The notes beneath the pieces are model-generated. The model had not been told where the DNA came from, searched no databases, and saw nothing but the letters and a program-made list of their open reading frames with translations. Shown here one piece after another: positions 20,454 to 40,226 of a stretch of 64,000 nt of DNA. How positions within the stretch are numbered: the first letter of the stretch is position 1; every line of letters starts with the position of its first letter. Origin of the DNA: an uncultured delta proteobacterium (GTDB taxonomy: Bacteria > Desulfobacterota > Desulfuromonadia > Desulfuromonadales > CAWBQR01); assembly GCA_963791005.1 (NCBI GenBank), contig CAWBQR010000017.1, forward strand, positions 29,455 through 93,454, given 5' to 3'. The translations under genes were made by a program, and so were the position numbers.

Positions 20454-20595
20454 AACCTGCTTTCAGGATATAGGGACTCAGATGCAATTCAATAACCCAA
20501 AAGGTTGATTCTTAACAGGAAAAAGAGTGAGACAAACTAAACCAAGGTTTGATTTCTAATGAGCACAGATGGGAGTGGGGGGGGGGTAGGCTTGT

Positions 20596-21300: not shown

Positions 21301-21399
21301 TCCATATTCCTCTATATGATCGTAATTGACGGGTTATCTCAAGCATAACCCATAAAAATTCAATTTCAATAATCCGGATTTTATTTTAAAAACAGAGCA

Positions 21400-22641: not shown

Positions 22642-22662
22642 CTCATACTCCTCCTGCCCGAT

Positions 22663-23895: not shown

Positions 23896-23898
23896 TTT

Positions 23899-24755
23899 TT
23901 ATTCCTCAATATTGGAAGGCTCTTTTTTAAGGCACAACACCCAGTGGTTAGAGAAAAAGCATAAAAATTTAAAGTATTTCTTATTCCCGATTCTTGAAAG
24001 CTGTTCACTTAGCTTTATGGACGTCTTTACTGGCAACAGTTCTTTTCTAAAGAACAAAAAGGGCCCAAAACTTACGTTGTAATTAGCTATTTTTCCAAGG
24101 TTTTGGTTCTTTAATTTTTTATTTAATTTTATAAAATTGTACCTCCTTATGATTTGGACTTTTTTTTGATTCGGTGATTTTATAAATATCTTTATGAATT
24201 TCTTTAATGGCCAAATAATAAGATAAAAGGGATCAAAAAATTTATTGATCATATAAAAATTTGGCGAGGCAACGACGATAACCCCCTTATTTTTGACCAC
24301 TCGAGCAATTTCTGATATGGCTTTATGATCTTCGTTCAGGTAGGAAAGGACGCCTATACATAATACGAGGTCGAAGGATTCATTCAAAAAAGGAAGACGT
24401 TCGATATCCGACTGGACCAAATGAAAGGGTATTTTGACATTTTCTCTTGCTTGAAGAAGCGATCGGTGATTGAGGTCCACCCCTGTCAACCGGGTTCCAT
24501 TAAAATCAAGGGCCCCAAGAATCCCCCCCTGCCCACACCCGCAGTCCAAAACCCTTTTCTCCCCCCCTGCCCTAAGAATTTTCTCACCGACTCGACCACC
24601 AACTCTTTTCTTTTGATCATTTCATAACTGAAAAACCCTCTTGGAAGACCAGGGTCGTAAACTTCAGCCCACCAGGAATATTCCCGGTCGAAAAAGGATA
24701 TGATCCGTTTATTCTGCAGGTCCGCCCCACCACCCGACGGCTCTTCCTTTTTCAT
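23899..24755 (-). CDS. Class I SAM-dependent methyltransferase (frameshift near 24550)
   Basis: LDCGCGQG, DIERLPF..ESFDLV; N-terminus in ORF 24486-24755; homopolymer runs at the junction. Confidence 0.85.
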
Positions 24756-24800
24756 TTTGTTCCCCTCTTCCGCAGCCGCCCGATGAATCCTCCGATGGCC

Positions 24801-25490
24801 TCAACCATTTTGGGAGGTTTCCACCGTTTTCCTGAAATTTTGCCGCTCCTGATCCAAATCGGTTTCAACCGTATCCGGGTCCGGCGCCACCCCCTGCCTT
24901 CTAATCACCTGCATGCATGTTCGCAGAAGAATGGACAGGTCTAAAGATAACGAACGATTCTGAACATACCAGACATCCAGTGCCAGCCTTTGGTCCCAGG
25001 GAAGGTAGTTGCGTCCATGAATTTGAGCCCATCCCGTGATTCCCGGCCTCACGGAATGCCGGAGCCCCTCCCGCTCGGTATAGTACGGCAGATATTTCAT
25101 AAACAGCGGCCTGGGCCCGACCAGGCTCATATCCCCCTTGAGTACGTTGAAAAGCTCCGGCAATTCATCCAGGCTCGAATTGCGCAAGAATCTCCCTAGG
25201 GAGGTCAGGCGTTCCCCGTCGGAAAGAAGCCTCCCGCTCCCATCCGTTTCATTGATCATGGTGCGGAATTTGAGTATGGTAAACGGACGCCCCCTCAGCC
25301 CGGGCCGCACCTGTCGGAACAGGACAGGCGTGCCCATCCGCAACCTTACCAAAAGGGCAACCAGTCCAAGTATCGGCGACAGCAACATTAATGCTGCCGC
25401 CGAAAGGCATGAATCCAGCACTCTCTTAGACCCTTCTCTGCCCAAAACAGATCTTCGTACGACCACGGTCCCAATCTGGTCTCTCGGCAT
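24801..25490 (-). CDS. PglC/WcaJ-type initiating phosphoglycosyltransferase
   Basis: KFRTM, LRNSSLDELPELFNVLKGDMSLVGPRP, RPGITGWAQ. Confidence 0.95.
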   Translation of the reverse strand: MPRDQIGTVVVRRSVLGREGSKRVLDSCLSAAALMLLSPILGLVALLVRLRMGTPVLFRQVRPGLRGRPFTILKFRTMINETDGSGRLLSDGERLTSLGRFLRNSSLDELPELFNVLKGDMSLVGPRPLFMKYLPYYTEREGLRHSVRPGITGWAQIHGRNYLPWDQRLALDVWYVQNRSLSLDLSILLRTCMQVIRRQGVAPDPDTVETDLDQERQNFRKTVETSQNG

Positions 25491-25505
25491 GGGGTAAAAC
25501 CTCCT

Positions 25506-26384
25506 CTAGCCCACCTTTCCAACCCATCCGAAAAGCATGCTTCCTCTTCCCAGCATCCTTGAAAGGGTCCAGATGCCGACAAAGGCCATGTTACCGGCCG
25601 ACCGCATGTTGTTGGAAGTCACAAACATCGGGTCGACGGGTGTGGTCGTACCTAGTCGATAAACCCTGAAGCCGACCCTGGAAAAAAGCCGATGCAAGGT
25701 CTTAGGGGTGAAGCCGTGGATATGATGGGGAGGTGGCACCGTCGCAACCGTTGAGCGTTTTGGAACAAATACTCTTCGCACCAGGCTCGGAAAACCATCC
25801 TCGTTCGGGGTCGAAAAAAGAACGACCCCTCCCGGGGCCAGCAGGCGGTCGATTCGGCAGAGGGTTTCGTAAGGATTCGGAAGATGCTCGATAACGTCTC
25901 TCAACCGGATGAAATCAAATTGCTCATCTTCGAGATTGCTTTCCAGCAGAGGAGAACATCGGAGATCGACCTGAAGCTGGTCGATGCCGGCCTTGATCAA
26001 ATCCGGGTCGATGTCGACGCCGATGGCACTCCAGCCAAGCTCGATAGCGGCCCGGACCGATCCCCCGGATCCGCAGCCGACGTCGAGAAACCGAACCGTT
26101 TCAAGAGGTCTCTGCGTCAGACGGCGGATCTCCTCCAGGTTGGCCTGGAGTTGTTTTTTTTCATACGAAATGATATCGGGGGTGATCTTCTGGTGCATGT
26201 ACCGGGTATATTGGAACTCACGGGAAATTTCGGAAAATTCCGGATTGGGTTCGAAAAAAGGTGCGGGATTGACGTAAATCAGTCCGCAGTTCCCGCATTT
26301 CCCAATCGACCAATCTTCAACATTTGAAACGATTTTATAGTCGTTTTCGCCACAAGCATTACACGATATCCATTCTTTTCGCAT
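25506..26384 (-). CDS. Class I SAM methyltransferase with N-terminal Zn-ribbon
   Basis: CNAC...CGNCGL, FLDVGCGSG, DVIEHLPNP. Confidence 0.88.
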   Translation of the reverse strand: MRKEWISCNACGENDYKIVSNVEDWSIGKCGNCGLIYVNPAPFFEPNPEFSEISREFQYTRYMHQKITPDIISYEKKQLQANLEEIRRLTQRPLETVRFLDVGCGSGGSVRAAIELGWSAIGVDIDPDLIKAGIDQLQVDLRCSPLLESNLEDEQFDFIRLRDVIEHLPNPYETLCRIDRLLAPGGVVLFSTPNEDGFPSLVRRVFVPKRSTVATVPPPHHIHGFTPKTLHRLFSRVGFRVYRLGTTTPVDPMFVTSNNMRSAGNMAFVGIWTLSRMLGRGSMLFGWVGKVG

Positions 26385-26448
26385 AGTATTTATTCCTTTA
26401 TTAAAGTTTTGCAGAACAGTTGAATACTTTTTTCTATTCGCTTAATTC

Positions 26449-27669
26449 TCAATGATTTGGAATCTTACCCAAACCTTGACCTGTATTACTTCCTAAGCCA
26501 AGGTGGCCTAATGTCTCCCTGCACCCTGCCTTAAAAAGAAAGGATGTTCTTTTAAAAATAGGTCTCGGATCCTTCAAATCAAAAATTGCAAAAACGTGCG
26601 GATTGAAATAGGGCCGAAGGTATTCCCGAACCGAATATTTCTCCTGCTTGAAATACATTGCGCTGTACCCCAAATCCCGGGCGCTGTCGATCCAGTAGAT
26701 ACCTTTCCGATAATCTGAAACGCCGGGGGTATCTCCGTACGCAAGGTGGCGGTAATGAAGCCAGGGAAAATTAATGCCGCAACGCACCGCCAGAAGGGTT
26801 GACAGGTTGTGGCGTCCGTTGACCTCCATCAGTTTGAATACGCCGTTCCGCGGGTCTTTTTTGAACTCGGTGCAGGCATAACCGGAAAACCCCAGAGCCC
26901 GGAGAATTTTCCGCCCCGGTTCAAGAACCTCGGGGATATCCTGGCTGATCACCACCCGTGGCGACCCGAACCACGGAGGAGCGTTCCTGACATGCCTGGC
27001 AGTGAATTCCGCCAGTGGTTTTCCATCCCAGAAATAAGCGTTGTAGTTGACGACCAGATTGTCATCACCCGGGATATATTCCTGAAGCATTACTTCGAGC
27101 CCGTGTTCCCGGGCTTGAACGAACACCTCTTTCATCCGGCCCGGATTGTCCACCTGAAACATCTTCGTCCCGAAACATTGGTAAAACAGGTGGCTCTGGC
27201 AAGGCTTGATCAGGCAGGGAAATTCGATGGTCTTTCCGTACCTTTCAACCTCTTCCAGACTTGCCGGGACGAGTGTCCTGGGAGCCGGTATGCCATGGGC
27301 ATCCGCCAGAGAGTAGGTAAATTTTTTATCAATGAACTTTCGGGTGACATCCCATCCCGTGCAGGCAACGGCATACAGATTCTCGAGTTCCGCGATGTTT
27401 CTGGAGACGGCAACCAGGGTCTCATCCGAAACGGGTATCAGCACTCCGCCTTTGAACTGAACTGAAATCTCCCTGAGCAGTTCCATGAATTCCTTTTCGC
27501 ACCTACCCGGATGAGGGGCCTCAATTGCCCTCACCACATATTTGGAAACATGCGCCATGTCCCTTTCTTCATAATGCACAAGAACTACAGGCACCCCCCT
27601 CTCCCCTAAAGAGCGGACGACTCCCAAGGCCATTGTATGCCCGGACAGGATGATCGCAGGCTTCAGCAT
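26449..27669 (-). CDS. ATP-grasp carboxylate-amine ligase (D-aspartate ligase-like)
   Basis: LGVVRSLG, FPCLIKP, LQEYIPG, EFKKDPRNG..KLMEVNGR. Confidence 0.85.
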   Translation of the reverse strand: MLKPAIILSGHTMALGVVRSLGERGVPVVLVHYEERDMAHVSKYVVRAIEAPHPGRCEKEFMELLREISVQFKGGVLIPVSDETLVAVSRNIAELENLYAVACTGWDVTRKFIDKKFTYSLADAHGIPAPRTLVPASLEEVERYGKTIEFPCLIKPCQSHLFYQCFGTKMFQVDNPGRMKEVFVQAREHGLEVMLQEYIPGDDNLVVNYNAYFWDGKPLAEFTARHVRNAPPWFGSPRVVISQDIPEVLEPGRKILRALGFSGYACTEFKKDPRNGVFKLMEVNGRHNLSTLLAVRCGINFPWLHYRHLAYGDTPGVSDYRKGIYWIDSARDLGYSAMYFKQEKYSVREYLRPYFNPHVFAIFDLKDPRPIFKRTSFLFKAGCRETLGHLGLGSNTGQGLGKIPNH

Positions 27670-27847
27670 ATCTCTTTCCCTCCAGATACAACTTGAGTAA
27701 GTTTGTATTAATGGATATACCCGGGAAGCGTTAATTCAATTCCCCAAAAGTTTGATTTTAAAACTGATTTTTTAAAACGAAAGTTTGGTTCTTAATGAGG
27801 GAGATGAGAAAGAAAATGAAACCGTGTGGAGGGAACCAGGAAATTTT

Positions 27848-28906
27848 TCAGGAGAGAGAATTTGTCCTATACAAAGGAAAATAGCCCAAGTATCTAGATT
27901 TCCTATCTAATGTTTCAGTTTTTGATTTAGCCAGATAATCATATTTTTCTTCATCGAATATCATTCGATAAGTATAAAAACTTTTTCTCAAAGGAGAAAA
28001 TCCACACTTAAAATTAAAAAGCGAATCGTTTTCGCCGCCGAACCCTCCACCGAGATGAAGTTTTTTTATTTTTTTTTCAATTCCCCATGAAGTCATAAAA
28101 TCAAAAATAATTTTTGATGGAGCCTTTTTAAGGAATTTCTCTTTTGTTCCGCCAAGATGATATTCAATAATATCAATGGTTTCAGTAAACAATCCCGATG
28201 CAGCAACTTCTCCTGACGGAGAAAACACGGTACATAAATGCAGGGCAGACTTAAGCTGGCTTCTCAAATCCTCGAAATATGAAGTGGGAAAAAAGTAAAA
28301 ATTGTCGGCGTTCAATCTTCTCATGGATTCGTAGTATATTTCCTTGAAATCATTGTAATAATTCCATTCATCCATTTTTACTGTAAACCCCTCTTTATAA
28401 AGTTTCTTTATGTCTCGCTTGTGGTTTTCTCTTAACTGCTTCCAAATTTCATTTTTATTCTGAGTAAGGTTTATGAAAACCGTTTCCCCGTGCTTAACCA
28501 GTACCCCATATTCTTCGAGGATCTCCAACGGCAATGGCAGAAGGGGGTGAAGTCGGATAAAGGCGGAAATCATGTTTCTGGCCCGGCATGTTTCGGCCCA
28601 AGCTTCCAGGAAATCGTTTAATTGTACTAAATTTTTTCCCGGATAAAAAATGGGTGAAGGATATCCGTAGGGGTTTATCAAATCGCGCCAATCATTGGGG
28701 GCGCCAAGTTCCGGGGGAATTTGTCTGACCAGCAGCGGCATAAGGAATTTTTCCCCTTGATCCTCGCAAAAAAAAGCGAGAGGGCCTCCCCCCTCGTGCT
28801 TCCCTGACAAGAGGAGGAATTCGGGACGTTGGTAAATATCATGAGGCGCCGACCTCAACAAATCGGCCCATCGTCCATCTGAGGGTTCGATAAATTCAGC
28901 TCGCAT
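27848..28906 (-). CDS. GNAT/FemAB-like acyl- or aminoacyl-transferase
   Basis: PYGYPSP, FIRLHPLL, YHLGGT, LHLGGG...LFNFKCGF. Confidence 0.8.
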   Translation of the reverse strand: MRAEFIEPSDGRWADLLRSAPHDIYQRPEFLLLSGKHEGGGPLAFFCEDQGEKFLMPLLVRQIPPELGAPNDWRDLINPYGYPSPIFYPGKNLVQLNDFLEAWAETCRARNMISAFIRLHPLLPLPLEILEEYGVLVKHGETVFINLTQNKNEIWKQLRENHKRDIKKLYKEGFTVKMDEWNYYNDFKEIYYESMRRLNADNFYFFPTSYFEDLRSQLKSALHLCTVFSPSGEVAASGLFTETIDIIEYHLGGTKEKFLKKAPSKIIFDFMTSWGIEKKIKKLHLGGGFGGENDSLFNFKCGFSPLRKSFYTYRMIFDEEKYDYLAKSKTETLDRKSRYLGYFPLYRTNSLS

Positions 28907-28917
28907 GTTCTTTCTAT

Positions 28918-30090
28918 TTATTGCTTTGTTTTTAAAGATTCAACCATATCATCGTTCCCTAAAATCGTCTTTTTCTGGACGAGCCCGAGATTTTTCATGA
29001 TTACCTGATTAACTTTGGTCACCTCATATTTTTCTTCGGCAATTTTTCTGCTTTCCATGCCCATCGGGGGAATCAGAGTGGGGTTGTAAATGAACTTTTC
29101 CATGGCTTCCACAAGTGCCGGGACGTTTTTTACGGGCACCAGAAAACCATTGATCCCCTCCCTGACTGTCTCGCGACAGCCTGGAGCATCCGTGGTAATG
29201 ATGGGCCGGCCCATTGCCATTGCCTCAAGTACCGTACGCGGTGTCCCCTCCCGGTAGGAAGGAAGAACGTAAACCGAAGAATTCGCAATAGCGGGCCTAA
29301 CGTCATCTAACATACCTAGATATTCCACAACTCCTTCCTGCGTCCAACAATCCAAATCTTGCTTTTTAATTGCGGTCGGGTTTCTGTCAATAAATCCGAC
29401 CAGGTAAAATTTGGCCTTATATCCTTTGTTTTTAATGATAGAGGCAGCCTCGATGTATTCAAGAATCCCCTTGTCCTTTATCAAACGGGCAATCAACAAA
29501 AAGGAAATCTCTGTTGGAAAATTTTGGGGATAAAAATATTTGGTATCCACACCAGAACCGTTAATTAATGTTTGATTTATATTTTTATTCGTTATTTTTA
29601 AATCTGAAAATAATTTCAAATCATCCGGGTTTTGAAAGAAGATAATACTATTAAACCGTAGTGCAATTTTGTATAATTTTATTACAAAAATTTTAATTAT
29701 TTTCGTTCTAAAATCTTTACCTATAAAAGAATATCCAAGACCAGTTATAATTGAAGAAACAAAAGGGATATGTGCAATTTTTGCACAAATTGAACCGTAA
29801 ACAACAGGCTTTATTGTATAAAACAAAACCTTATCTGGTTTTAGTTTTTTGAAAATTCCAACAAGAACGCTTAAGTCCTGGATGTCTGTCACTGGATTGA
29901 TTCCAACCCTGTTGAAATTTACCTTGATAGGTTCGACTCCAATATCAATAAGAATTTTTTTAATATATTCAGGAAAACTTGGCGCACAGACGATAACCTC
30001 ATGTCCGTTTTCAACCATCTCCTCCAAAAGCTTACCTCTGAAGGTAACAAGTGACTCCCCAACATTTCCTAAAACCAGAACTCTTCCCAT
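28918..30090 (-). CDS. Glycosyltransferase family 4 (CapM-like)
   Basis: IKPVVYG, FQNPDD, LPSYREGTPRTVLEAMAMG. Confidence 0.92.
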   Translation of the reverse strand: MGRVLVLGNVGESLVTFRGKLLEEMVENGHEVIVCAPSFPEYIKKILIDIGVEPIKVNFNRVGINPVTDIQDLSVLVGIFKKLKPDKVLFYTIKPVVYGSICAKIAHIPFVSSIITGLGYSFIGKDFRTKIIKIFVIKLYKIALRFNSIIFFQNPDDLKLFSDLKITNKNINQTLINGSGVDTKYFYPQNFPTEISFLLIARLIKDKGILEYIEAASIIKNKGYKAKFYLVGFIDRNPTAIKKQDLDCWTQEGVVEYLGMLDDVRPAIANSSVYVLPSYREGTPRTVLEAMAMGRPIITTDAPGCRETVREGINGFLVPVKNVPALVEAMEKFIYNPTLIPPMGMESRKIAEEKYEVTKVNQVIMKNLGLVQKKTILGNDDMVESLKTKQ

Positions 30091-30127
30091 AATCAAAGGC
30101 CCAAAAAGAGTTTACCCGGATAACGGA

Positions 30128-31351
30128 CTACTTATTCGTCCCCTTTATATTCATGAATTTTTCCGTCCGTTCCTTTACGTTTTTGTAAAATTCAACCCGC
30201 CTTTTTTGCAATAATTCGCTTCGGTACCCTTTTGATTTTTCCAAATTCCGAATGCTCATTTGAGCCATTCTGTCTGGGTCGCTCAAAATATCCCGGATTT
30301 TTTTGCCGAGGGAATCCACATCGTCAGGCGGAACCAGATCATCGGCGTCAAGAAGCTCCGGAATCCCACTTGCCGTAGAGCCGATACAGGGCAATCCCCT
30401 GGCCATTGCTTCGATCATGGCCCTCGGCAGCCCCTCGCCCCTGGAAGGCAGAACAAAAAGGTCGGCTTTGTCCAATTGCTCCCTTATCGCCTCCCCCGAA
30501 GGCAATCGGCCCAAAAAACGAATTCTTCCTTCCAGTCCCTTGGATGCCACCCTTTGTTCCAGACCAGGACGAAATTTCCCGTCGCCGATGATGTTTAAGT
30601 GTAGCTCCACGCCTAGGGCGCCGCAAAGAACGACAGAATCTATCAATATGTCGGGAGCCTTATACAATTGATCAAGAGTCCCTACAAAAATTAGATTGTA
30701 TTTTTCTTTTTTATTAAAATTTCTGGGCTTTTCAATATATGCCCCTTGTTTCATCTGAATGCTTGAATAGTGGGTACTGAAAGCACCTACTGACGGAGGA
30801 TAACGTTTTTGCAAGGCAAATTCAGTTACATACGAAACAGCACAAGCTCTGGAACATTGATACTTTAATTTATTTGTAAACATGATTCTGAAAATTGGAC
30901 GCAAAGGGTGTCTTATAGCTCCTGGTCCAAATACGTCATAGGGGTCTGATACGACTTCCATCCCATAGGGAAATTTACTTTTATTAAACTCATCAATAAA
31001 AAGAGACCCTATCTTTCCAGGGGTTCTGGCAATAAAGGAAGAATTCATTTTCTGTTTCAAAAAAACGGATCGTACCTTTTTTTTAATCTCAATTGATTTT
31101 TTCAAGTATTGCGTTGGTCCGTGGTAATAAGGGAGCGAAACAAAAAACACCCCCTCACCTGTAACTGGACTCATTGCCTGCTTTATGTCTGGAATATTCT
31201 TATCTTGAAGTCTACCAACAACTATTACTCTATCAAATGCGTCTAGATATTTTTTGAAATAGTTGTATCCTGCTCCATGTTCATTATTTGTAACTACATT
31301 TCCATAAGAGTCCAATATAAACCGTGTCTCAGAAGTTAGAACAAGATTCAT
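30128..31351 (-). CDS. Glycosyltransferase family 4
   Basis: FVLPSRGEGLPRAMIEAMARG (EX7E motif). Confidence 0.9.
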   Translation of the reverse strand: MNLVLTSETRFILDSYGNVVTNNEHGAGYNYFKKYLDAFDRVIVVGRLQDKNIPDIKQAMSPVTGEGVFFVSLPYYHGPTQYLKKSIEIKKKVRSVFLKQKMNSSFIARTPGKIGSLFIDEFNKSKFPYGMEVVSDPYDVFGPGAIRHPLRPIFRIMFTNKLKYQCSRACAVSYVTEFALQKRYPPSVGAFSTHYSSIQMKQGAYIEKPRNFNKKEKYNLIFVGTLDQLYKAPDILIDSVVLCGALGVELHLNIIGDGKFRPGLEQRVASKGLEGRIRFLGRLPSGEAIREQLDKADLFVLPSRGEGLPRAMIEAMARGLPCIGSTASGIPELLDADDLVPPDDVDSLGKKIRDILSDPDRMAQMSIRNLEKSKGYRSELLQKRRVEFYKNVKERTEKFMNIKGTNK

Positions 31352-31361
31352 ATTAATTCTC

Positions 31362-32798
31362 CTAAGGATGTTGCCTAAACTTATATTCGTAATTTTTATT
31401 TTTCTTTGAATTTAATTTAGAAATTTGAACCATAAAAAACAATAGAACAAAACCCATTACTATAGTTGAAGGCACAAAAACGAATCCATTTCTTACCTGT
31501 ATAAGCAAAGGGAATAATATGAATCCTGCGGCAAGTTGGCGGATTTGAGTTGAAGGCCACAAGTCCATCCAAGCCAAAAGGATTCCCGTGAAAAGCATTA
31601 TCAACAAAACTCCCGTTTTTCCAAAATTTCGATAAGCTTCAGCAATGGGAGAAAATCCTATCGGTCCAACTCTTTGTTGAATCAAGACATTCATAAGCCG
31701 AACATCCTCATCGGCTGGAGGCCGGGACCACCCTGGGATCAAATAGATCATCGCCCTATCAAATGGAGCCCAGTAACTGCTGCCATGAATGAACGGCTCT
31801 CCGGCCTGTGCCCAGGACACGGCTTCCACCACGGGCCTGATGGACCCCCCCAACTCCGCCAGTCCACCAATTGGGCTTATCTGACCACTTGAAGGTTCAA
31901 ACTCGCCAAGGCCCACATGCCTTATTTGCTTAAACAGGGAGATGGCGCTCAGGAGACATATTCCCAAAACAAAGGTTTTCCTGGGGGACAAAGGAATCTT
32001 TTTCATAGATACAACCGCCAGAGCGGAAAAAACCGGGAAAAGGACTTCTCCCCTCAGGCCCAGAGGAAGACCCACCAGGGCAAAGATGGAAAAGATCAAA
32101 AAACCGGCCCGTCTTGCCCTGGACGGCGGACACACCGCCAGGATAATCAACCCCCATGCCATGCAGAAATATAACCAGTTCAGATGAGAACCTTTCGTGA
32201 CGGCCAGGAATACCGGATAGGAGGTTCTCAATAGCAATTTAAACCCTCCAAGGCGAAAGACCGTTAAAAACCACAAAAAGGTGGAAAAGCTTATAAGAAA
32301 AAATCCAGTTTTCCAAAGGACATTATTTAAATCAGGGATACTTTCATCACTATTATCCCATACTTTTTCTGGTTTTTTTCTAAATAGATTCACTAAAGAG
32401 ACGCCAGCAACAAGTCCTGTAAATCCTATATTTACCAATATAATGGCATACTTTGATTCATAAGAATAAAACCAAGTTGCCAAATAAGAATTAAATGAGG
32501 ATGACAAATTAAATCCCAAACCAATAACTAGTATTAAACCGTAATGAAATAAACAAAATATTATCCCATAAACTGAATAAATGGACCAGAATGTTTTTTT
32601 GCTAGATTTCATTAAATAAATTACAGAAATAAGCATTATTACAATTGAAATTGAAAATAATTTTGAAAATGACCATGTTTCCATTACAACTAGATATTCA
32701 CATTGTGCGACACTTATAAAAACAAAAAACAACAAACCAAAAACAAAAAATAAGCTGTGGCGTTCTCCTTCTTGATCTAATTCGGTGTATTCAGCCAT
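31362..32798 (-). CDS. wzy: Wzy polysaccharide polymerase
   Basis: About 11 TM helices, LGLRGEVL and IGFSPIAEAYRNFG motifs, inside the GT cluster. Confidence 0.8.
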   Translation of the reverse strand: MAEYTELDQEGERHSLFFVFGLLFFVFISVAQCEYLVVMETWSFSKLFSISIVIMLISVIYLMKSSKKTFWSIYSVYGIIFCLFHYGLILVIGLGFNLSSSFNSYLATWFYSYESKYAIILVNIGFTGLVAGVSLVNLFRKKPEKVWDNSDESIPDLNNVLWKTGFFLISFSTFLWFLTVFRLGGFKLLLRTSYPVFLAVTKGSHLNWLYFCMAWGLIILAVCPPSRARRAGFLIFSIFALVGLPLGLRGEVLFPVFSALAVVSMKKIPLSPRKTFVLGICLLSAISLFKQIRHVGLGEFEPSSGQISPIGGLAELGGSIRPVVEAVSWAQAGEPFIHGSSYWAPFDRAMIYLIPGWSRPPADEDVRLMNVLIQQRVGPIGFSPIAEAYRNFGKTGVLLIMLFTGILLAWMDLWPSTQIRQLAAGFILFPLLIQVRNGFVFVPSTIVMGFVLLFFMVQISKLNSKKNKNYEYKFRQHP

Positions 32799-32813
32799 TT
32801 GGGAACTCCATTA

Positions 32814-33947
32814 TCAATGAGACCATATCTCTAAAAGCTTCCTTTTGCAGTTATCCAAATCGAACGGACTATCGGCAATTCGATCAAGAGCCTCCTCCCG
32901 AAAGTTTTGGGAAGGTTTGGCACAAATCTCGGACGCCGTCGAGGCCCAGACCTGGTCCGGGGCATCAACCGGCAAGCACGTGATCAAACCATCCAGCACG
33001 CTCTTGATTTCCACAATCCCCGCCAGATGACTTGCCAGAACCGGAGTTCCGGCAGCACAGGATTCGACGACAGCCCCAGGCAAACCTTCCCATAAAGAAG
33101 GGAAAAGCATCAGGTCGGCCGCCTTGAGAAGCCTGGGCACATCCTCGCGTTCACCCGCAAACACGACCCTTCCGTCCACACCCAGAGCCAGGGCCTGCTG
33201 CCTCAACTCCTCCCCCATCTGGTTGTCCTCCCGCCCAACAACCAAAAGGCGGGCATTCGGATCAAGGCGGCCTATTTGCTGAAATACAGCCAGAAGCTTT
33301 CGATGGTTTTTGGCTGGAGTCATTCTCCCAACGTGTATGTAAAGCCTGCAGGGTTCGGGCAAACCGAATTCCCTTCGTACTTCTTTTGGCACAGGCTTCC
33401 CTTTAAATGGGGAAAGGTCAAATCCGTTGTAGATTACCTCGCAGCGAGAATCAAAGGTCCAGTCCGTTCCCCAGGCCGAAACCATTGCCGCTTCCGAGAC
33501 CGAGACAATTTTCGATGCGTAGCGATTTAAAAAGTATTTCATAACCATGGTCTTACAACGCCTGGCCAGGGTGTTTTTTTTCCCGTCATTGGTACTTCTG
33601 AAATGAGCCACCCGCACCGGCACTTTTTCCCATGCAGCCAGGAGCAGCATTAATCCAGAGGCCATAAAGACGTGCGAGTGAACCGTATGAAATCTCTTCT
33701 TTTGGAGAAGGCGCCGAAATTTGAACGGAAAATCCGGCCCGATTTTGAGAAAATGAATATCGCCCCCCAGCTGCAGAATTTCTTCATCGAGCTCTCCGGG
33801 CAAGCCGGAGAGGACGCAAAACTCAAATTTGAACTGCGAAGGGTCGATACTCCGCATCAATTCAATGGTCCGTATCTCCGCTCCTCCACGGACCATTCGT
33901 CCGAAAATATGAAGAATTGTCCTGGGGGAAGGGTTCTCATTTGACAT
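32814..33947 (-). CDS. Glycosyltransferase family 4 (EpsF/CapH-like)
   Basis: GGAE, HVGRMTPAKNH, PSLWEGLPGAVVE. Confidence 0.9.
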   Translation of the reverse strand: MSNENPSPRTILHIFGRMVRGGAEIRTIELMRSIDPSQFKFEFCVLSGLPGELDEEILQLGGDIHFLKIGPDFPFKFRRLLQKKRFHTVHSHVFMASGLMLLLAAWEKVPVRVAHFRSTNDGKKNTLARRCKTMVMKYFLNRYASKIVSVSEAAMVSAWGTDWTFDSRCEVIYNGFDLSPFKGKPVPKEVRREFGLPEPCRLYIHVGRMTPAKNHRKLLAVFQQIGRLDPNARLLVVGREDNQMGEELRQQALALGVDGRVVFAGEREDVPRLLKAADLMLFPSLWEGLPGAVVESCAAGTPVLASHLAGIVEIKSVLDGLITCLPVDAPDQVWASTASEICAKPSQNFREEALDRIADSPFDLDNCKRKLLEIWSH

Positions 33948-33961
33948 TTTTGGATATTTCC

Positions 33962-35281
33962 TCAAGCATATGTATTTCTAAGAGCATGAGAAATTACATA
34001 TATTTTAATCGGAATCTGAACAATAAACATATTAATTATACTTATAGCAGCCCCCATGATTCCCATAACTGGTATAAGGAAATATGAGGATATGGAAACT
34101 ACCAACAAAGAGGCAATGGCTATGGGCACCTGTACTTTAAAATGTCGAGCAGATGTAATTGCCACACCTAGAAATGATGATATATAACTAAGACATGATG
34201 CTATCATTATAAAAAGGAACACTTCATTATATTGTGAATATTCCTTTCTATACAAAATGCTCAAAATTTCTTTTCCAAAAATTCTTATAATAAATATACC
34301 GGATATTCCGACTACCGCTCCTATTCCAACCAGTTTAACTAACAACCCGACAAACTTCAAAGACCCTTGCGATGAATAATATTTTGCCAATCGTGGACTT
34401 GCCGCCTGACCAAGTGCAGATACTATCGCAGTCCCGGCAACCATGAGATAGGCCATAGCCGCAAAAATACCCAAATCATGCTCACCATTAAATTTTTCGA
34501 TCAAGTATCTTGGAATATTGGTATTTAACGAATTCAACATGGTCACTATCCCCAAAGGAAGAGACAATAATGTTAAATTTTTCATAATATTTTTACTAGT
34601 TTTCAATGAGTGCAAATAACTTGAAATATTCTTGCTGGCAAATAGTCTGAATTTACCATTTGTGAATCTTTTCCCGTTAGGATAATCATAGAAAAAAAAT
34701 ATTATGATTTTTGCAAAAACAAGACTTAATGTTGCAAAAAATACATCTCTTGTTACCAAAAAACCAAGAAACATTGCCGTCAGTGACAATATCCCCCTTA
34801 AGATCATTGATTTTCCAATTACATTCATGGATTCATTTTTTTGAAAAAGTCCATAAAATGCATCACTTAATGCCTCAACGCTTTTGCTTCCCGCAACAGC
34901 CAAAACGACCAGTGCCGTTTCAACTTTATATTTAGTAAAAAATATAATAATTAAAATCAATATCGCTGCAAGAGACGTCATGACAACTCTGAGTTTAAAG
35001 TAGTCTTCAAAACAAAAAGAATTTTTTGCATCTGTTGCCTGCACAGCCCGGAGGTTGAGATTTGCAAACATGAAAACAGGGGCTGCAACTGCAAGGCCCA
35101 GCGCAAACTGTCCCACGCTGTCAGGGGTCCCCAGTTTTGCAAGAACCACCAAAATTCCCCACTGGCACCCCGCATAAATGACATTCCCGGCCAGGGTCCA
35201 GGAAAAATTTCTGCGCAGGGACAATCCCTTTTTTATTCCTGTCTGGGCATCGGCTGCCGTGTTCAGACTGATATGAGGCAT
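33962..35281 (-). CDS. wzx: Wzx flippase
   Basis: LRRNFSWTLAGNVIYAGCQW...GQFALGLA; about 12 TMs. Confidence 0.88.
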   Translation of the reverse strand: MPHISLNTAADAQTGIKKGLSLRRNFSWTLAGNVIYAGCQWGILVVLAKLGTPDSVGQFALGLAVAAPVFMFANLNLRAVQATDAKNSFCFEDYFKLRVVMTSLAAILILIIIFFTKYKVETALVVLAVAGSKSVEALSDAFYGLFQKNESMNVIGKSMILRGILSLTAMFLGFLVTRDVFFATLSLVFAKIIIFFFYDYPNGKRFTNGKFRLFASKNISSYLHSLKTSKNIMKNLTLLSLPLGIVTMLNSLNTNIPRYLIEKFNGEHDLGIFAAMAYLMVAGTAIVSALGQAASPRLAKYYSSQGSLKFVGLLVKLVGIGAVVGISGIFIIRIFGKEILSILYRKEYSQYNEVFLFIMIASCLSYISSFLGVAITSARHFKVQVPIAIASLLVVSISSYFLIPVMGIMGAAISIINMFIVQIPIKIYVISHALRNTYA

Positions 35282-35526
35282 AAGTACTTCCAACCTGCAA
35301 ATTAGCTTCGGCAAACGTCTAAGGGGCTGTTATCGGAAACACCGGAATTCCAATGGTTTCATAACGTATCCATTTTTTAAATTGATATCGTGTATATATT
35401 TGATATAGCTCAAAAAAACATGATGTCAATCGAACACGGGACCAGAAGCTTTCACTTGATAAAGAGTTTATTTGAAAGAATTTCAATAATGTCCTTCCCT
35501 TAGGGCTCCTGAATACATCCGCGGAT

Positions 35527-36807
35527 TCAGGGGCGCGGAGCAACAGAATGAAAAAACCTGCGACCGGCAGATCGGTGATTCATATCGGCTATGTCGACAC
35601 TCTCGAAGTCGGCTGCAGTGACCTTTCCACCGAACCCTTGTCCCCTGCTGGCGGTAATGGTGGTGGCAGAGCCGATTCTGTCCCCCCCTCCCCCGAAGGA
35701 TATGGCCTGGGACACGGTATTGTTTGCGTGGGGCAAACTCCAATTGGTTCCGTTATGGTAGGCAATACATCCCGTGAACGAACTGCCGTTGGTCGTACCA
35801 TTTTCATCAAACCCCCTGGCACGGTTCCCTATGGCGAAGCAGCGAATCAGGGTATGGCCCCCTCCCGACGAATCCGAATTGGGACGATAACCAAGGGCCT
35901 TGCCGAGCTTGAAGCCGTTCCCGTCGCCCTTTCTCCCCTTGCCGTTCCCAGCGGAAATGCAATCCTCATAATAATTGCCGACCGAGGCCCAGTTGTCCCA
36001 CCCGTCGTCGGAGTTGCCCATCGAGACGCAGCGATAGAAGATATTCTGCCCCCCCGAGGTGATGGAATAGCCATCGCCGGTATTCCCTGCGGTTTGGATG
36101 TTCGCATTGTCGCTGGAGGTGCAGTTGAAGAATTTCACCCGATACATCTCCTTGGCGTTGAATCCGGCTCCGTTGTTGTTGTGCAGATAAATGTTGTGGA
36201 ATTCACAGTCGGTCAGATTTTCGCCATAAATGCCGTTGGCGTTTTTGGTGGGATCGCTGTTTCGGATCTCCAGATTCCGGAAGATGAGCCAGGATTCGTT
36301 CAACAGGCGGACGAGATTTCCCCTCCCGTCGCTGCCGGTGCCGTCGATAATCGCCCATTCGCCGGGATAGGAGCGGATTTCCATGGGATGCTGCCGAGTT
36401 CCGAGCGCGTTCCTATTGATGATCACGGGAGAATAATAGATGCCCCCGCGCAGATAGATGGTGTCCCCGGCACTGGAGTGGGTCATGCCGTACTGGATGT
36501 GCTGCCACGGGGAGGAGATGGTGCCGGTGCCGCTGTCGGAGCCTGCAGGTGAGACATACCGGGAGACCCCGCCGTAGGGTGCAGCCTTGGGGTCGTCCTG
36601 GGCCACCATCGCCTTGTCGTAGCCGTAAAAGACAGGTTTTGTCTTATTCGGCAGGTTCAGGTCGGCAGGGGAAACGACCTTCCCGACTGAGGGAGTTGGA
36701 TGGTCTCTGCCGGAGGGAATTTCAATGGTAGGAGGGACTGCCCGCGCGCCGCATCCTTGGACGGAAAACAGAAAAACAAGCAAAGCGCCTACCAGCGAAT
36801 ACCTCAT
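35527..36807 (-). CDS. Lipoprotein with PL9-like right-handed beta-helix polysaccharide lyase domain
   Basis: Lipobox VQGC; YVSPAGSD..G, AGDTIYLRGG, NSDDGWD, GDGNGFKLG. Confidence 0.8.
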   Translation of the reverse strand: MRYSLVGALLVFLFSVQGCGARAVPPTIEIPSGRDHPTPSVGKVVSPADLNLPNKTKPVFYGYDKAMVAQDDPKAAPYGGVSRYVSPAGSDSGTGTISSPWQHIQYGMTHSSAGDTIYLRGGIYYSPVIINRNALGTRQHPMEIRSYPGEWAIIDGTGSDGRGNLVRLLNESWLIFRNLEIRNSDPTKNANGIYGENLTDCEFHNIYLHNNNGAGFNAKEMYRVKFFNCTSSDNANIQTAGNTGDGYSITSGGQNIFYRCVSMGNSDDGWDNWASVGNYYEDCISAGNGKGRKGDGNGFKLGKALGYRPNSDSSGGGHTLIRCFAIGNRARGFDENGTTNGSSFTGCIAYHNGTNWSLPHANNTVSQAISFGGGGDRIGSATTITASRGQGFGGKVTAADFESVDIADMNHRSAGRRFFHSVAPRP

Positions 36808-36991
36808 TCATCCTCATTTCCGTGTCCGGTTAAGGGCCTGTGCAAGCCCCATCCGGGGCACAATATCCGAAAAGGTCCAATCCTTGCGGTGCTTCAGTTT
36901 CCCAATAGCATAATTCTGAGGGTAATCAAGGCAATTCGGGGACAGGTAAAAGAATTGCCATGGTCCACCCACCCGCAAGGGGGGGGCAGAT

Positions 36992-37029
36992 AAAAAAATG
37001 AGGCTTCCACCTTGCGGTGGAAGCCTCAT
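36992..37029 (-). terminator. Intrinsic terminator after the Ig/PL9 gene
   Basis: 14-bp stem ATGAGGCTTCCACC-GCAA-GGTGGAAGCCTCAT plus T-run. Confidence 0.85.
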
Positions 37030-37051: not shown

Positions 37052-39592
37052 TTAGAACAGAGGAACGACGGGATAGAAGTACCTCTGCCCGGCTGTCTGG
37101 TTGTTCATATTGGCAACGTCGACGCTTTCGTAGTCGGAGGTAGCGACCGATCCTCCGAACACCTGACCCATGCTGTCAATAACGTTGGTGGCGGAACCGA
37201 CGCTGCCCCCGGAGCCTCCGAAGGAGATGCCGTTGGTAACGGTATTGTTGGCATTGGGCAGGTGCCAGTTGGTGGCGTTGTTGTAGGAAATGCATCCCGT
37301 GAAGGTAATGCCGTTGGTCGTACCGTTCTCGTCAAATCCCCGGGAGCGGTTCCCGCTGGAGATACAACGAACCAGGGTATGCCCGCCACCCTCGGAATCG
37401 GGGTTGGGGGAATAGCCAAGAGCTTTGCCGAGCTTGAAGGCATTGCCGTTGCCGTTTGCCAACTTCCCGTTGTTGGCGGAAATGCAGTCCTCGTAATAAT
37501 TGCCGACAGAGGCCCAGTTGTCCCACCCGTCATCGGAGTTGCCTATCGAGACGCAACGGTAGAACTCGTTCTGCCCCCCCGAGGTGATGGAAAAACCATC
37601 GCCCGTGTTCCCGGCGGTTTGGATGTTCGCGTTGTCGCTGGCGGTGCAGTTGTAGAACTTCACGCGGTACAGCTCTTTGGCGTTCATACCGGCCCCGTTG
37701 TTGTTGTGCAGATAGATGTTGTGGAATTCACAATCGGTCAGATTTTCGCCATAAATGCCGTTGGCGTTTTTGGTGGGGTCGCTGTTTCTGATCTCCAGGT
37801 TTCGGAAGATAAGCCAGGACTCGTTTATCAGCCGGACGAGATTGCCGTTCCCATCGCTGCCGGTGCCGTCGATAACCGCCCATTCGCCGGGATAGGAACG
37901 GATCTCCATGGGATGCTGCTGGGTCCCGGGCGCGTTCCCGTTGATGGTCACGGGGGAATAATAAACCCCGCCACGCAGGTAGATGGTGTCCCCGGCGTTG
38001 GAGTGGGTCATGGCGTACTGAATATGCTGCCACGGGGAGGAGATGGAGCCGGTGCCGTTGTCGGACCCCGTGGGAGAAACATAACGGGAAACACCGCCGT
38101 AGGGCGCGGCATTGGAGTCGTCGTTGGCCCCCAACGTCTTGTCGTAACCGTAAAAGACTGTTGAGGAGGATGGTTGGGTGCTGGCGGGAGCAGAGATATT
38201 TACCGTCAAGGTGACGGGGCTGGAAACCCGGCTGTTCCCCGCCGCATCATAGGCCTTGGCGGTGAAGCTGTGGGTGCCGTCGGTTGAGCTCGAAACCGCC
38301 CACGCATAGATGTAAGGCGCCGCGCTATCGGTCCCCTTCAAGGTGGAGCCGTCATAGAACTCCACCTTGCTGATCCCCACGTTGTCCGAGGCCGAGGCGG
38401 TAACCGTCACGGTCTGGGCGCTGGTGTAGGTCGCATTGGCCGAAGGGCTGGAGATCGAAACGGTGGGCGCGGTGGTGTCTGCCGAAGCTTTATCATCGTC
38501 CACGATCGTTACGGCTGCCGTGGTGGGAGAGCCCAGGGTCGCTCCCCCGGTCGGGTTGTTTAGAAGAACGTTGAACGTTTCATTCCCTTCCACCAGGGTG
38601 TCCTGAATAATGTTGACGCTTACCACCTTGCTGGTTTCCCCGTCCGCAAAGGTCAGCGGAGTCCAGGAAACTCCCTGGTAGTCGACGTTGACCGTGGCGG
38701 TATTCTGCTGGGTGCCCCAATCGACCGTAACCGTGCCACCGCTGCCGCCGACCCGATTAACGGTGAGGTTGACCTTACCGGCCCCTTCTCCCACCGAGTA
38801 GGAAGCAGAACCGAATTGAAAGGTTCCAGGAGAAGAGGTGGAAGCGGATGCGATGTTCACGTTCAAGGTGTCCGGACTCGAAGTGGCGCTGTTGCCGGCG
38901 GCATCATAGGCCTTGGCGGTGAAGTTGTGGGTGCCGTCGAGAGAGCTGGAAATCGTCCACGAGCAGGTGAACGGAGAGGAGGTGTCGGTCCCCTTCAAGA
39001 TGGACCCGTCATAGAATTCCACCTTGCTGACCCCCACGTTGTCCGAAGCCGAAGCGGCAATCGTCACGGTCTGGGCGCTGGTGTAGGTGGTATTGGCCGC
39101 GGGGCTGGAAATCGAAACGGTCGGGGCGGTCGTGTCTGAGGGAGGCACTGCCACCGGTGCAGCAATATTCACCGCGAGGCTTACAGGGCTCGAAGTGGCG
39201 CTGTTTCCGGCGGCGTCATAGGCCCTGGCGGTAAAATTGTGCGTCCCGTTATTGGAGCTCGACACCGGCCACGAATAGGTGTAAGGCGCGGTGGTGTCTG
39301 TACCTTTCAAGGTGGACCCGTCATAGAACTCCACCTTGGTGACACCCACGTCATCCGATGCCGTAGCGGTAATGTTGACGGTTTGGGCGGAGGAGAAGGT
39401 GGTGTTCCCGGAGGGGGAGGTAATTGCTACCTGGGGAGGAGTCGTATCGCCGTGGCTCGTTATGAACTTATACCACGATGAAGCCCAGGTAGGGGGGGAT
39501 GCCTGTGCTTTTTGAGCATTTGCCAAACCAAAAAAGGTCAAGGACAATGCAACAAAGATAAACAAAGAAATTGAACGGTTTCTTGCCAACAT
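37052..39592 (-). CDS. Secreted protein: three bacterial Ig-like domains, Calx-beta and PL9-like beta-helix
   Basis: Signal peptide; three DTTxP...ASDxVGVxKVEFYDG...AYDAAGN repeats; Calx-beta (FADGETSK..DTLVEGNETF); NSDDGWD and NGNAFKLG. Confidence 0.88.
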   Translation of the reverse strand: MLARNRSISLFIFVALSLTFFGLANAQKAQASPPTWASSWYKFITSHGDTTPPQVAITSPSGNTTFSSAQTVNITATASDDVGVTKVEFYDGSTLKGTDTTAPYTYSWPVSSSNNGTHNFTARAYDAAGNSATSSPVSLAVNIAAPVAVPPSDTTAPTVSISSPAANTTYTSAQTVTIAASASDNVGVSKVEFYDGSILKGTDTSSPFTCSWTISSSLDGTHNFTAKAYDAAGNSATSSPDTLNVNIASASTSSPGTFQFGSASYSVGEGAGKVNLTVNRVGGSGGTVTVDWGTQQNTATVNVDYQGVSWTPLTFADGETSKVVSVNIIQDTLVEGNETFNVLLNNPTGGATLGSPTTAAVTIVDDDKASADTTAPTVSISSPSANATYTSAQTVTVTASASDNVGISKVEFYDGSTLKGTDSAAPYIYAWAVSSSTDGTHSFTAKAYDAAGNSRVSSPVTLTVNISAPASTQPSSSTVFYGYDKTLGANDDSNAAPYGGVSRYVSPTGSDNGTGSISSPWQHIQYAMTHSNAGDTIYLRGGVYYSPVTINGNAPGTQQHPMEIRSYPGEWAVIDGTGSDGNGNLVRLINESWLIFRNLEIRNSDPTKNANGIYGENLTDCEFHNIYLHNNNGAGMNAKELYRVKFYNCTASDNANIQTAGNTGDGFSITSGGQNEFYRCVSIGNSDDGWDNWASVGNYYEDCISANNGKLANGNGNAFKLGKALGYSPNPDSEGGGHTLVRCISSGNRSRGFDENGTTNGITFTGCISYNNATNWHLPNANNTVTNGISFGGSGGSVGSATNVIDSMGQVFGGSVATSDYESVDVANMNNQTAGQRYFYPVVPLF

Positions 39593-39666: not shown

Positions 39667-39704
39667 AAAAAATGCGTTTGCCTTTTTTTGCCGAAGACAA
39701 ACGC
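39667..39704 (-). terminator. Riboswitch-associated intrinsic terminator
   Basis: GCGTTTGTCTT-loop-AAGGCAAACGC followed by ATTTTTT, in the leader downstream of the proximal aptamer. Confidence 0.75.
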
Positions 39705-39751
39705 TTTCCCTTGAAGCCAAATCGTTCTTATCTGGCTGGAAAATTGTTGCT

Positions 39752-39830
39752 CTCTTCGGCAGCCGGACGGTCCCTCGTCAGGGATCCCTGGCTTTGCGTA
39801 ACAGGATTTCTCCGGTTTTGCCCTTTCGGA
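39752..39830 (-). ncRNA. Cyclic di-GMP-I (GEMM-I) riboswitch, proximal, G20 type
   Basis: CCGAAAGGGCAAAACCGGA-GAAA-TCCTGTTACGCAAAGCCAGGGATCCCT...AGGGACCGTCCGGCTGCCGAAG matches the GEMM-I P2/P3 pattern. Confidence 0.88.
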
Positions 39831-39984
39831 GTTTTTGAAGAACTGCTTTAAGTGATTAATGTAGCTTGTACTATTTAGTAGGCTCCTTTCCTTTGTTCGT
39901 CTTGCCGGATGCCTTGCGCAATTATCCTGCTTAACCTACCCAAATTTAAATGCCGGGTGGCCGGGTAAAATGTATTCACATCCA

Positions 39985-40064
39985 CTTCGGCAACCCGGCT
40001 ATCCTATCTTGCAAGGACCCGTGGCTTTGCGTCCCCGAATCTCTTCGAGTTTGCGCTTATCGGT
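39985..40064 (-). ncRNA. GEMM-I riboswitch, distal, C at position-20 equivalent
   Basis: CCGATAAGCGCAAACTCGAA-GAGA-TTCGGGGACGCAAAGCCACGGGTCCT...AGGATAGCCGGGTTGCCGAAG. Confidence 0.9.
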
Positions 40065-40209: not shown

Positions 40210-40226
40210 AGCACGTCCCGTGCCAA
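40210..40226 (-). promoter_or_regulatory. Sigma-54 (-24/-12) promoter
   Basis: TTGGCACGGGACGTGCT: GG-N10-GC with a near-consensus TGGCACG. Confidence 0.75.

What the first reader, a model, noticed from the sequence alone, without database searches (positions are those of the whole stretch)
39667..39830. Visible expression platform predicts a c-di-GMP OFF switch for a secreted lyase
Seen: the aptamer 3' strand UGCCGAAGA (39761-39753) is exactly complementary to UCUUCGGCA (39697-39689), which spans the left arm and loop of an 11-bp terminator. A second strong terminator (36992-37029) closes the downstream gene. Inference: without ligand the antiterminator forms; ligand-stabilised P1 frees the terminator. 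High c-di-GMP would therefore shut off only the large lyase gene, which fits a biofilm-dispersal or matrix-release enzyme encoded at the head of its own EPS locus.
Basis: partly seen in the sequence, partly recalled or inferred. Interest (0 to 1): 0.7.

Follow-up and report, generated by a model that had tools for sequence, protein, structure and literature searches.

The report
Tandem cyclic-dinucleotide riboswitches before secreted lyase
The leader of a gene for a predicted secreted sugar-chain-cutting enzyme carries two cyclic-dinucleotide RNA sensors in a row; the second likely stops transcription when c-di-GMP is high, but an overlooked pairing seen in related switches could make it work the other way, so the direction is untested.

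Summary
The 9-nt complement, the 11-bp terminator and the terminator after the gene are all present, and the RNA is a real c-di-GMP-I aptamer with G20. The gene encodes a predicted secreted PL9 lyase with Ig and Calx-beta domains, placed first in a Wzy-type polysaccharide cluster.

(1) A second aptamer lies 232 nt upstream; it has C20 and an ON-type hairpin with a weak U tail, behind a sigma-54-like promoter, and the genome has a Hypr-type GGDEF gene. (2) The 9-nt pairing is ordinary in related switches (20 of 38 exact). (3) A segment between aptamer and terminator can also capture the aptamer strand; in 18 of 21 closest-type switches it does so, which implies ON logic. This copy departs from that pattern towards OFF.

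Folding models give either polarity: OFF about 0.45, ON 0.35, weak or constitutive 0.2. It is a new member of a known class. A cGAMP-AND-NOT-c-di-GMP gate is possible (about 0.12). Unchecked scan notes report the tandem here, and similar tandems and a riboswitch-led glycanase in other genomes.

The parts
40210..40225 (-). sigma-54-type -24/-12 promoter-like site, about 135 nt before the first aptamer
   Evidence: Pattern match; the strict pattern occurs 3 times in the genome; a looser match lies upstream of the ortholog's aptamer; rpoN is present. Consensus recalled; function inferred.
39985..40064 (-). Upstream (distal) GEMM-I aptamer with C at Vc2 position 20 (window 40055), A47 and C92 kept
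   Evidence: Rfam 62.1 bits; RF01051 67.5 bits; 85% identical to an A20 aptamer of the same genome
39942..39999 (-). ON-type (pilM/Gm0970-like) hairpin that swallows the distal aptamer's P3 and P1 3' strand (39999-39952), followed by a weak A/U tail with 6 U in 10 nt
   Evidence: -27.0 kcal/mol, z -5.0; same layout as the sister-order switches; termination efficiency untested
39755..39832 (-). Proximal c-di-GMP-I aptamer: G20 at 39822, C92 at 39759, 5-nt J1/2 (a natural subtype)
   Evidence: RF01051 56.9 bits; 5-nt J1/2 in 6 of 41 aptamers surveyed
39753..39761 (-). Strand A: aptamer 3' strand, shared between P1, segment I and the antiterminator
39729..39743 (-). Segment I: complementary to the P3 3' strand and strand A (13 bp in three pieces), a possible anti-antiterminator
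   Evidence: 11-12 expected pairs while the 3' end is at 39729-39717; duplex -13.1 kcal/mol, shuffle p 0.105 on its own
39705..39722 (-). Segment I': pairs with I (14 bp); predicted to free strand A and to cap the antiterminator helix
   Evidence: Dominant once the 3' end reaches 39713; -11.8 kcal/mol
39689..39697 (-). Strand T core: 9-nt complement of A across the terminator's left arm and loop
39667..39704 (-). Intrinsic terminator: 11-bp stem, 9-nt loop, A plus U6
37052..39592 (-). 846-aa predicted secreted protein: signal-peptide-like N-terminus, 3 Big_7 Ig domains, Calx-beta, C-terminal PL9 beta-helix with D665, D687, D688, D691, K720
   Evidence: Pfam, 1ru4 match, alignments, model pLDDT 94.6 with best matches 1ru4 and 5olq, positions
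36991..37029 (-). Strong terminator after the lyase gene, also present after the ortholog's gene
35527..36807 (-). Second PL9 gene, 79% identical in the catalytic domain, with a lipoprotein-like signal (Cys at residue 19); outside the predicted riboswitch transcript
   Evidence: lipobox read by eye
12993..35314 (-). Wzy-dependent polysaccharide cluster: wzx, three GT4 genes, wzy, tailoring enzymes, priming transferase, aminotransferase, LuxR-type regulator, dehydratase, porin, wza, wzc, phosphatase
   Evidence: Pfam and NCBIfam

Best explanation
The flagged RNA is a c-di-GMP-I aptamer with a terminator, the second of two GEMM-I aptamers in one leader, and it likely works as an OFF switch that would stop transcription of a predicted secreted PL9 lyase gene when c-di-GMP is high. 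Inferred steps: transcription starts at a sigma-54-type promoter and passes the upstream C20 unit, whose ON-type hairpin has a weak tail and probably attenuates only partly. Without c-di-GMP, segment I' removes segment I, strand A pairs with the terminator arm and loop, and the polymerase reads through. With c-di-GMP bound, strand A is held in P1, the loop is free and the terminator forms. The strong terminator after the gene would confine the effect to this gene, leaving the lipoprotein paralog and the polysaccharide genes to other promoters. The enzyme would trim or release the cell's own uronic-acid-containing matrix (inferred from family and position).
For: Aptamer and G20/C92 shown; G20 marks c-di-GMP recognition (PMC6140456, passages). 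Equilibrium: antiterminator probability 0.89-0.91 from 39689 to 39675 without ligand; terminator when the aptamer is masked to any of five end points. Kinetic model with a locked bound core: more terminator bound than free in 5 of 7 parameter sets, about 1.0 in both states in the other 2. The copy departs from its kin towards OFF: no A:I pairs in the pre-terminator fold, where 18 of 21 of its subtype have 10 or more; I:I' -12.5 against a median of -6.6; ligand-compatible A':T -5.5 against a median of -10.6. The layout (aptamer, hairpin, separate terminator) matches the tested OFF switch Cd1 (PMC9262584). PL9 fold and residues. The ortholog keeps a G20 aptamer, leader terminator, gene, second terminator and second PL9 gene.
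Against: Segment I does pair with A for about 15 nt of synthesis. The slow regime that gives OFF fails both published-type ON controls (free termination at most 0.09 at k0 1e5). In the fast regime the unbound RNA terminates fully, weak binding gives 77% antiterminator and strong binding terminates again. Of 24 scanned genes behind this platform type, 5 encode Ig/Fn3 surface proteins, 2 SCPU pilins, 2 OmpA, 5 signalling proteins, 1 FapA and 9 have no family; adhesins and pilins usually rise with c-di-GMP (PMC6366702). The upstream unit has ON architecture, and the published Geobacter tandems all respond as ON (PMC6456294). The ortholog's direction is unclear: OFF at equilibrium, weakly ON or unswitched in the kinetic model. 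At full length the two folds lie within about 2 kcal/mol.
Confidence: 0.45

Rival explanations
1. The proximal unit is an ON switch. Without ligand, segment I captures the P3 3' strand and strand A early, so the terminator forms. Bound c-di-GMP protects the aptamer, I pairs with I', and strand T then takes A. The 9-nt pairing is still the antiterminator, but it is reached from the bound state. With the upstream ON-type unit this is an ON/ON tandem, and the lyase would be made together with matrix and adhesins.
For: 18 of 21 switches with the same 5-nt J1/2 have 10 or more A/P3:I pairs before T appears (median 15 against 6.4 for shuffles). 22 of 25 fold to the terminator without ligand at full length, so they could be expressed only from the bound state. 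Three loci have an A:I hairpin with a U-rich tail and a second CUUCGG terminator under one aptamer. Gene associations. A sister-order genome has an A20 ON-type aptamer followed by a second aptamer before a Big_7-repeat protein similar to this one. The fast kinetic regime gives ON at weak binding.
Against: In this copy I' displaces A from I at equilibrium and the toehold is weak; A:I alone is not significant (p 0.105). Only 3 of the 21 beat all 30 shuffles, and the relatives are not independent. The kinetic model showed at most a weak ON response, in 1 of the 6 loci run. Strong binding terminates in every run. I found no tested switch of this platform type.
Confidence: 0.35
2. The proximal unit regulates weakly or not at all: it terminates in both states, or responds only over a narrow ligand range. 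Expression is then set mainly by the sigma-54 promoter and the upstream unit.
For: Near-complete termination in both states in 2 of 7 parameter sets; a non-monotonic response at k0 1e7 and 3e6; mismatches in P2 and P3; Bc1 binds c-di-GMP without regulating its genes (PMC11218506, abstract).
Against: All ligand-contact positions and the C44-G83-type contact are kept; five complementary strands are maintained; the ortholog keeps an aptamer and a terminator.
Confidence: 0.2

Closest known systems
c-di-GMP-I (GEMM-I, RF01051) transcriptional OFF switch Cd1 of Clostridioides difficile
   Same: G20 aptamer, an intervening hairpin and a separate terminator whose arm pairs with the aptamer's 3' strand (PATH scheme; PMC9262584, part 1 and passages)
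   Different: Here the 5' strand of the intervening hairpin also pairs with the aptamer (segment I), J1/2 is 5 nt, the unit is second in a tandem, and the gene is a lyase rather than a flagellar operon. I could not check whether Cd1's hairpin has the same property.
Geobacter GEMM-Ib (3',3'-cGAMP) ON switches pilM, pgcA and Gm0970, including tandem pairs
   Same: The upstream unit has the same hairpin, which includes the aptamer's P3/P1 strand; tandem spacing is similar; the genome has a GGDEF gene with the Hypr Ser and the Tyr304-type residue
   Different: C rather than A at position 20, a weaker U tail, and a partner with a separate terminator. The published tandems all fall in a gacA mutant (PMC6456294, section 8 and supplement rows).
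Tandem c-di-GMP-I riboswitches (347 doublets, 12 triplets; Sherlock et al. 2022, PMC9481103)
   Same: Two GEMM-I aptamers in one leader, each with its own platform
   Different: Those are treated as same-ligand, same-direction pairs; its Table 2 lists no c-AMP-GMP/c-di-GMP-I gate (passages).
Polysaccharide lyase family 9 (Pel9A 1RU4; rhamnogalacturonan lyase 5OLQ)
   Same: Right-handed beta-helix with the calcium-binding Asp set and the catalytic Lys motif (PMC6627557 passages)
   Different: About 20% identity, Ig and Calx-beta domains in front, located in a biosynthetic cluster, far below the PelN cut-off; substrate unknown.
Vibrio cholerae RbmB
   Same: Secreted lyase encoded in the biofilm cluster, cuts the cell's own polysaccharide and aids dispersal (PMC11637428, passages)
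   Different: Only a distant beta-helix match (E 4e-4); the paper has no mention of c-di-GMP.

Membership tests
c-di-GMP-I riboswitch (proximal unit) | Rfam RF01051 above the gathering score | tested here: met
   56.9 bits against 35
c-di-GMP-I riboswitch (proximal unit) | G20, A47, C92, GNRA tetraloop and the C44-G83-type contact | tested here: met
   Read from the alignment; J1/2 is one base short, as in 6 of 41 aptamers
c-di-GMP-I riboswitch (proximal unit) | Binds c-di-GMP selectively | not testable with these tools
   Needs in-line probing or ITC
Cd1-type transcriptional OFF switch | Separate terminator whose arm pairs with aptamer strand A | tested here: met
Cd1-type transcriptional OFF switch | Read-through without ligand, termination with ligand | tested here: inconclusive
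   Direction changes with model parameters
GEMM-Ib cGAMP riboswitch (distal unit) | A at position 20 | tested here: not met
   C at 40055; a public contig agrees
GEMM-Ib cGAMP riboswitch (distal unit) | Host encodes a Hypr GGDEF | tested here: met
   1 of 16 GGDEF domains inspected (of 20 matches) has Ser at the signature position; it also has the Tyr304-type residue; activity untested
pilM-type ON platform (distal unit) | Terminator hairpin overlaps the aptamer 3' strand | tested here: met
pilM-type ON platform (distal unit) | U-rich tract sufficient for termination | tested here: inconclusive
   6 U in 10 nt, split by AAA; not called by the scan; weaker than the tails
Polysaccharide lyase family 9 | Parallel beta-helix fold closest to PL9 | tested here: met
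   Foldseek best matches 1ru4 (E 3e-14) and 5olq/5olr
Polysaccharide lyase family 9 | Calcium-binding Asp residues and catalytic Lys | tested here: met
   Invariant in 6 of 6 close homologs and in 90% or more of 81
Polysaccharide lyase family 9 | Beta-elimination on a uronic-acid polymer | not testable with these tools
   Needs an enzyme assay

The most novel reading that the evidence does not exclude
One leader computes cGAMP AND NOT c-di-GMP. The upstream C20 aptamer reads cGAMP as an ON switch: cytosine offers the same donor and acceptor pattern as A20, and 6 of 7 pyrimidine-20 aptamers found have C. The downstream G20 unit has been flipped from its family's ON logic to OFF by a stronger I' hairpin and a weaker toehold. 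The matrix-cutting enzyme is then made only in the loosely attached, high-cGAMP, low-c-di-GMP state. If the C20 aptamer reads c-di-GMP instead, the leader is a natural band-pass filter.
Probability: 0.12. Interest if true: 0.72.

Novelty: new member of a known kind. Interest (0 to 1): 0.38.

Why it matters
If the OFF reading holds, the locus links c-di-GMP directly to shutting off a matrix-cutting enzyme in Desulfuromonadales. With the upstream unit it could be a two-messenger gate, a kind absent from the 2022 catalogue of tandem riboswitches. Either way, the five-strand platform (A, I, I', T, H) is common in this order and I found no tested example. One in vitro termination assay on this leader and two or three relatives would fix the direction for many switches controlling surface proteins. 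It is also a warning: a perfect aptamer-to-terminator complement does not by itself give the direction of a switch.

Tried and rejected
More orthologs: a class-wide protein search found the gene in 2 of 401 genomes, this one included. The metagenome scan returned only distant PL9 relatives, or short pieces of them. The loci of two closer homologs (P0003, P0005) could not be fetched.

Expression: no RNA holder listed; contigs cannot show 3' ends.

The 9-nt pairing as a peculiarity of this locus: rejected; 20 of 38 aptamers surveyed have CUUCGG downstream and 25 of 38 have it or a one-letter variant (sample biased to top-scoring and look-alike hits). A degenerate proximal aptamer because J1/2 is short: rejected, it is a recurring subtype. 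A local duplication after the distal aptamer: rejected, it is the standard ON-hairpin arm. C20 as an assembly error: not supported. The ortholog as clean independent support for OFF: withdrawn.

The kinetic model is home-made (direct-path barriers, no polymerase footprint, no tertiary energy) and fails its ON controls at usual rates, so it is used only to show which states compete. The window rows and the terminator column were void (wrongly picked pairs) and were redone. One search printed all 12 jobs; one search ran 6 of 8. The first structure model (6 sequences, pLDDT 57) was dropped.

The weak sigma-70-like match at 39950-39921 is within chance (3 found, 2.5 expected), so a separate promoter for the proximal unit is neither shown nor excluded. 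Kellenberger 2015, Nelson 2015 and Weinberg 2017 are not held; they and their supplements may already cover C20 aptamers. Searches found no C20 data, and one search found no natural band-pass tandem among the 15 papers listed.

Full report
Observation. The strand 39761-39753 is the exact complement of 39697-39689. The terminator has an 11-bp stem (39704-39674), a 9-nt loop and a U6 tail, -14.2 kcal/mol, z -3.5. A complement this long arises in 25 of 5000 shuffles of the platform. The aptamer is Rfam RF01051 at 39832-39755 with G20, A47 and C92. G20 is the c-di-GMP signature and A20 the cGAMP signature (PMC6140456, passages). The terminator after the gene is very strong.

Organism. The genome is a 3.39-Mb, 60% G+C, 65% complete assembly with 12 RF01051 matches; by my reading 6 have G20, 5 have A20 and 1 has C20. 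No other member of its family was returned. The one ortholog found by name is in Pelobacter sp. UBA6812, and the class-wide search found the gene in one other genome, of the same order (2 of 401). I therefore place it in Desulfuromonadales (GTDB placement recalled). GEMM-I matches occur in 130 of 151 genomes of the order.

The gene. ORF 39592-37052 encodes 846 aa: a signal-peptide-like start, three Big_7 domains, one Calx-beta domain and a beta-helix. The only solved sequence match is Pel9A, 1RU4. A model from 81 sequences (pLDDT 94.6) matches 1RU4 and the PL9 rhamnogalacturonan lyase best. D665, D687, D688, D691 and K720 are invariant in 6 of 6 close homologs and fit the calcium ligands and catalytic lysine described for PL9 (PMC6627557, passages). 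The lyase call is sound; the substrate is unknown. The next gene is a 79% identical PL9 paralog with a lipoprotein-like signal, followed by a Wzy-dependent polysaccharide cluster. The ortholog keeps the order: sigma-54-like site, G20 aptamer, terminator, large lyase, terminator, second lyase, GT4 genes. It has one aptamer only. The conserved terminator after the gene supports the claim that the switch acts on this gene alone, but promoters for the downstream genes were not shown.

The missed upstream unit. A second aptamer lies at 40064-39985, about 135 nt after a sigma-54-like site whose strict pattern occurs 3 times in the genome. It has C at position 20 and is 85% identical to an A20 aptamer elsewhere in the genome. 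A strict pattern for pyrimidine-20 aptamers hit 7 of 401 genomes, 6 with C and 1 with U. Cytosine has the same donor and acceptor pattern as adenine on the pairing edge, so a cGAMP preference is plausible (my inference). Uracil at this position weakens c-di-GMP binding in Vc2 (10.1101/617340, passages); I found no data on C20 (three key papers not held). The genome has a GGDEF gene with the Hypr serine and the Tyr304-type residue (residue context from PMC6456294 passages and primer table). After the aptamer comes a -27 kcal/mol hairpin that includes its P3 and P1 strand. This is the layout of the ON switch pilM (PMC9262584) and of most switches in two sister-order genomes. Its tail is weak, so it may attenuate only partly or be a relic.

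Direction of the proximal switch: the case for OFF. Without ligand, the antiterminator has probability about 0.9 until the terminator is complete; with the aptamer masked, the terminator forms. This is the Cd1 scheme. A home-made cotranscriptional model with a locked bound core gave more terminator bound than free in 5 of 7 parameter sets and near-complete termination in both states in 2.

The case for ON. The complement is not special: 20 of 38 surveyed aptamers have CUUCGG downstream. Folding in stages showed that 39743-39729 (segment I) pairs with the aptamer's P3 3' strand and strand A before the terminator arm exists, and that 39722-39705 (I') later pairs with I. Among 21 switches with the same short J1/2, 18 have 10 or more A/P3:I pairs at that stage, against a shuffled median of 6.4; only 3 beat all 30 shuffles and the relatives are not independent. 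Among 22 with a 6-nt J1/2 only 5 do. Across 41 platforms the duplex test gave p at most 0.05 in 14. 22 of 25 fold to the terminator without ligand at full length. Such switches can be expressed only if ligand protects A from I and T then takes it, which is ON logic. The genes behind this platform include Ig/Fn3 surface proteins and pilins. All genes behind GEMM-Ib switches in G. sulfurreducens fall when cGAMP is lost, tandems included (PMC6456294, section 8 and supplement rows). The kinetic model reproduces its ON controls only at fast rates; at those rates this RNA terminates without ligand, antiterminates 77% with weak binding and terminates with strong binding.

Weighing. The window's copy is one of the 3 of 21 exceptions. 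Its A:I duplex (-13.1) is weaker than the -17 to -22 of most of its subtype, its I:I' hairpin is about twice the median, and the part of A:T that is compatible with bound ligand is about half the median. These changes favour read-through without ligand and termination with it. The kinetic model showed at most a weak ON response among the 6 other loci run at the fast rate, so it cannot confirm the family logic either. The ortholog is ambiguous. I give OFF 0.45, ON 0.35 and weak or constitutive 0.2. A lyase in a biofilm cluster can serve dispersal, as RbmB does (PMC11637428, passages), but being encoded with the matrix genes fits ON as easily.

Novelty. The class is known, and tandem c-di-GMP-I switches are the most common tandems (347 doublets; PMC9481103, passages). 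That catalogue lists no c-AMP-GMP/c-di-GMP-I gate. I found no description of this five-strand platform. The scan's own unchecked notes had flagged the tandem and promoter here (I had both and my note), an opposite-polarity tandem and two mixed tandems in other genomes, and a GEMM switch before a beta-helix glycanase. The gate reading needs three untested steps, each near even odds, hence about 0.12.

Verdict. A real riboswitch, a real lyase-type gene and a correct observation; the direction is open and the leader has a second input that the finding left out. New member of a known kind; interest 0.38.

Noticed in passing
G000:C2:271380-271838 (-): GGDEF domain with Ser at the Hypr signature position and Tyr at the GacA Tyr304 position, a likely cGAMP synthase; the open frame is only 252 aa, possibly cut by an assembly frameshift.
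   Followed up: partly
G000:C6:191209-191520 (L001): A second tandem in this genome: two A20 aptamers before a multiheme cytochrome gene; the first has a separate strong terminator, the second a CUUCGG hairpin without a U tail.
   Followed up: partly
L171, L176, L179: Single aptamers followed by an A:I hairpin with a U-rich tail and then a second CUUCGG terminator: two possible terminators under one aptamer, in doublets and triplets.
   Followed up: partly
L142, L144, L145 (G078): GEMM-I aptamers with G instead of C at the position that pairs with the ligand's second guanine; two are the downstream partner of an A20 aptamer before secreted Ig/Fn3-type proteins. The ligand may differ.
   Followed up: no
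L134, L136-L140: Six other pyrimidine-20 aptamers (5 C, 1 U), before genes that include FapA, a PAS-GGDEF protein, a Cache-HAMP protein and a multiheme cytochrome.
   Followed up: partly
window 22663-23895 (-): MiaB/RimO-like radical SAM gene inside the polysaccharide cluster, with no TRAM domain called; also noted in an earlier scan report.
   Followed up: no
window 27848-35314: The wzx/GT4/wzy block is 41% G+C against 60% for the genome, suggesting an exchanged serotype-like cassette; the ortholog has GT4 genes directly after the second lyase.
   Followed up: no
window 20596-21300 (-): LuxR-type regulator whose best match is CsgD (below cut-off), embedded in the polysaccharide cluster.
   Followed up: no
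G000:C18:270093-271510; C1:16201-16669; C12:63304-63694; C20:132621-133078: rpoN and three GGDEF matches come in pieces, which suggests indel errors in this assembly.
   Followed up: no
window 51991-54867 (+): A ROK-family domain in one open frame with transketolase, followed by transaldolase.
   Followed up: no
G000:C22:17896-17974 and C22:29750-29828: Two near-identical variant GEMM-I aptamers with ON-type hairpins and U tails, 12 kb apart, before similar leaders.
   Followed up: no
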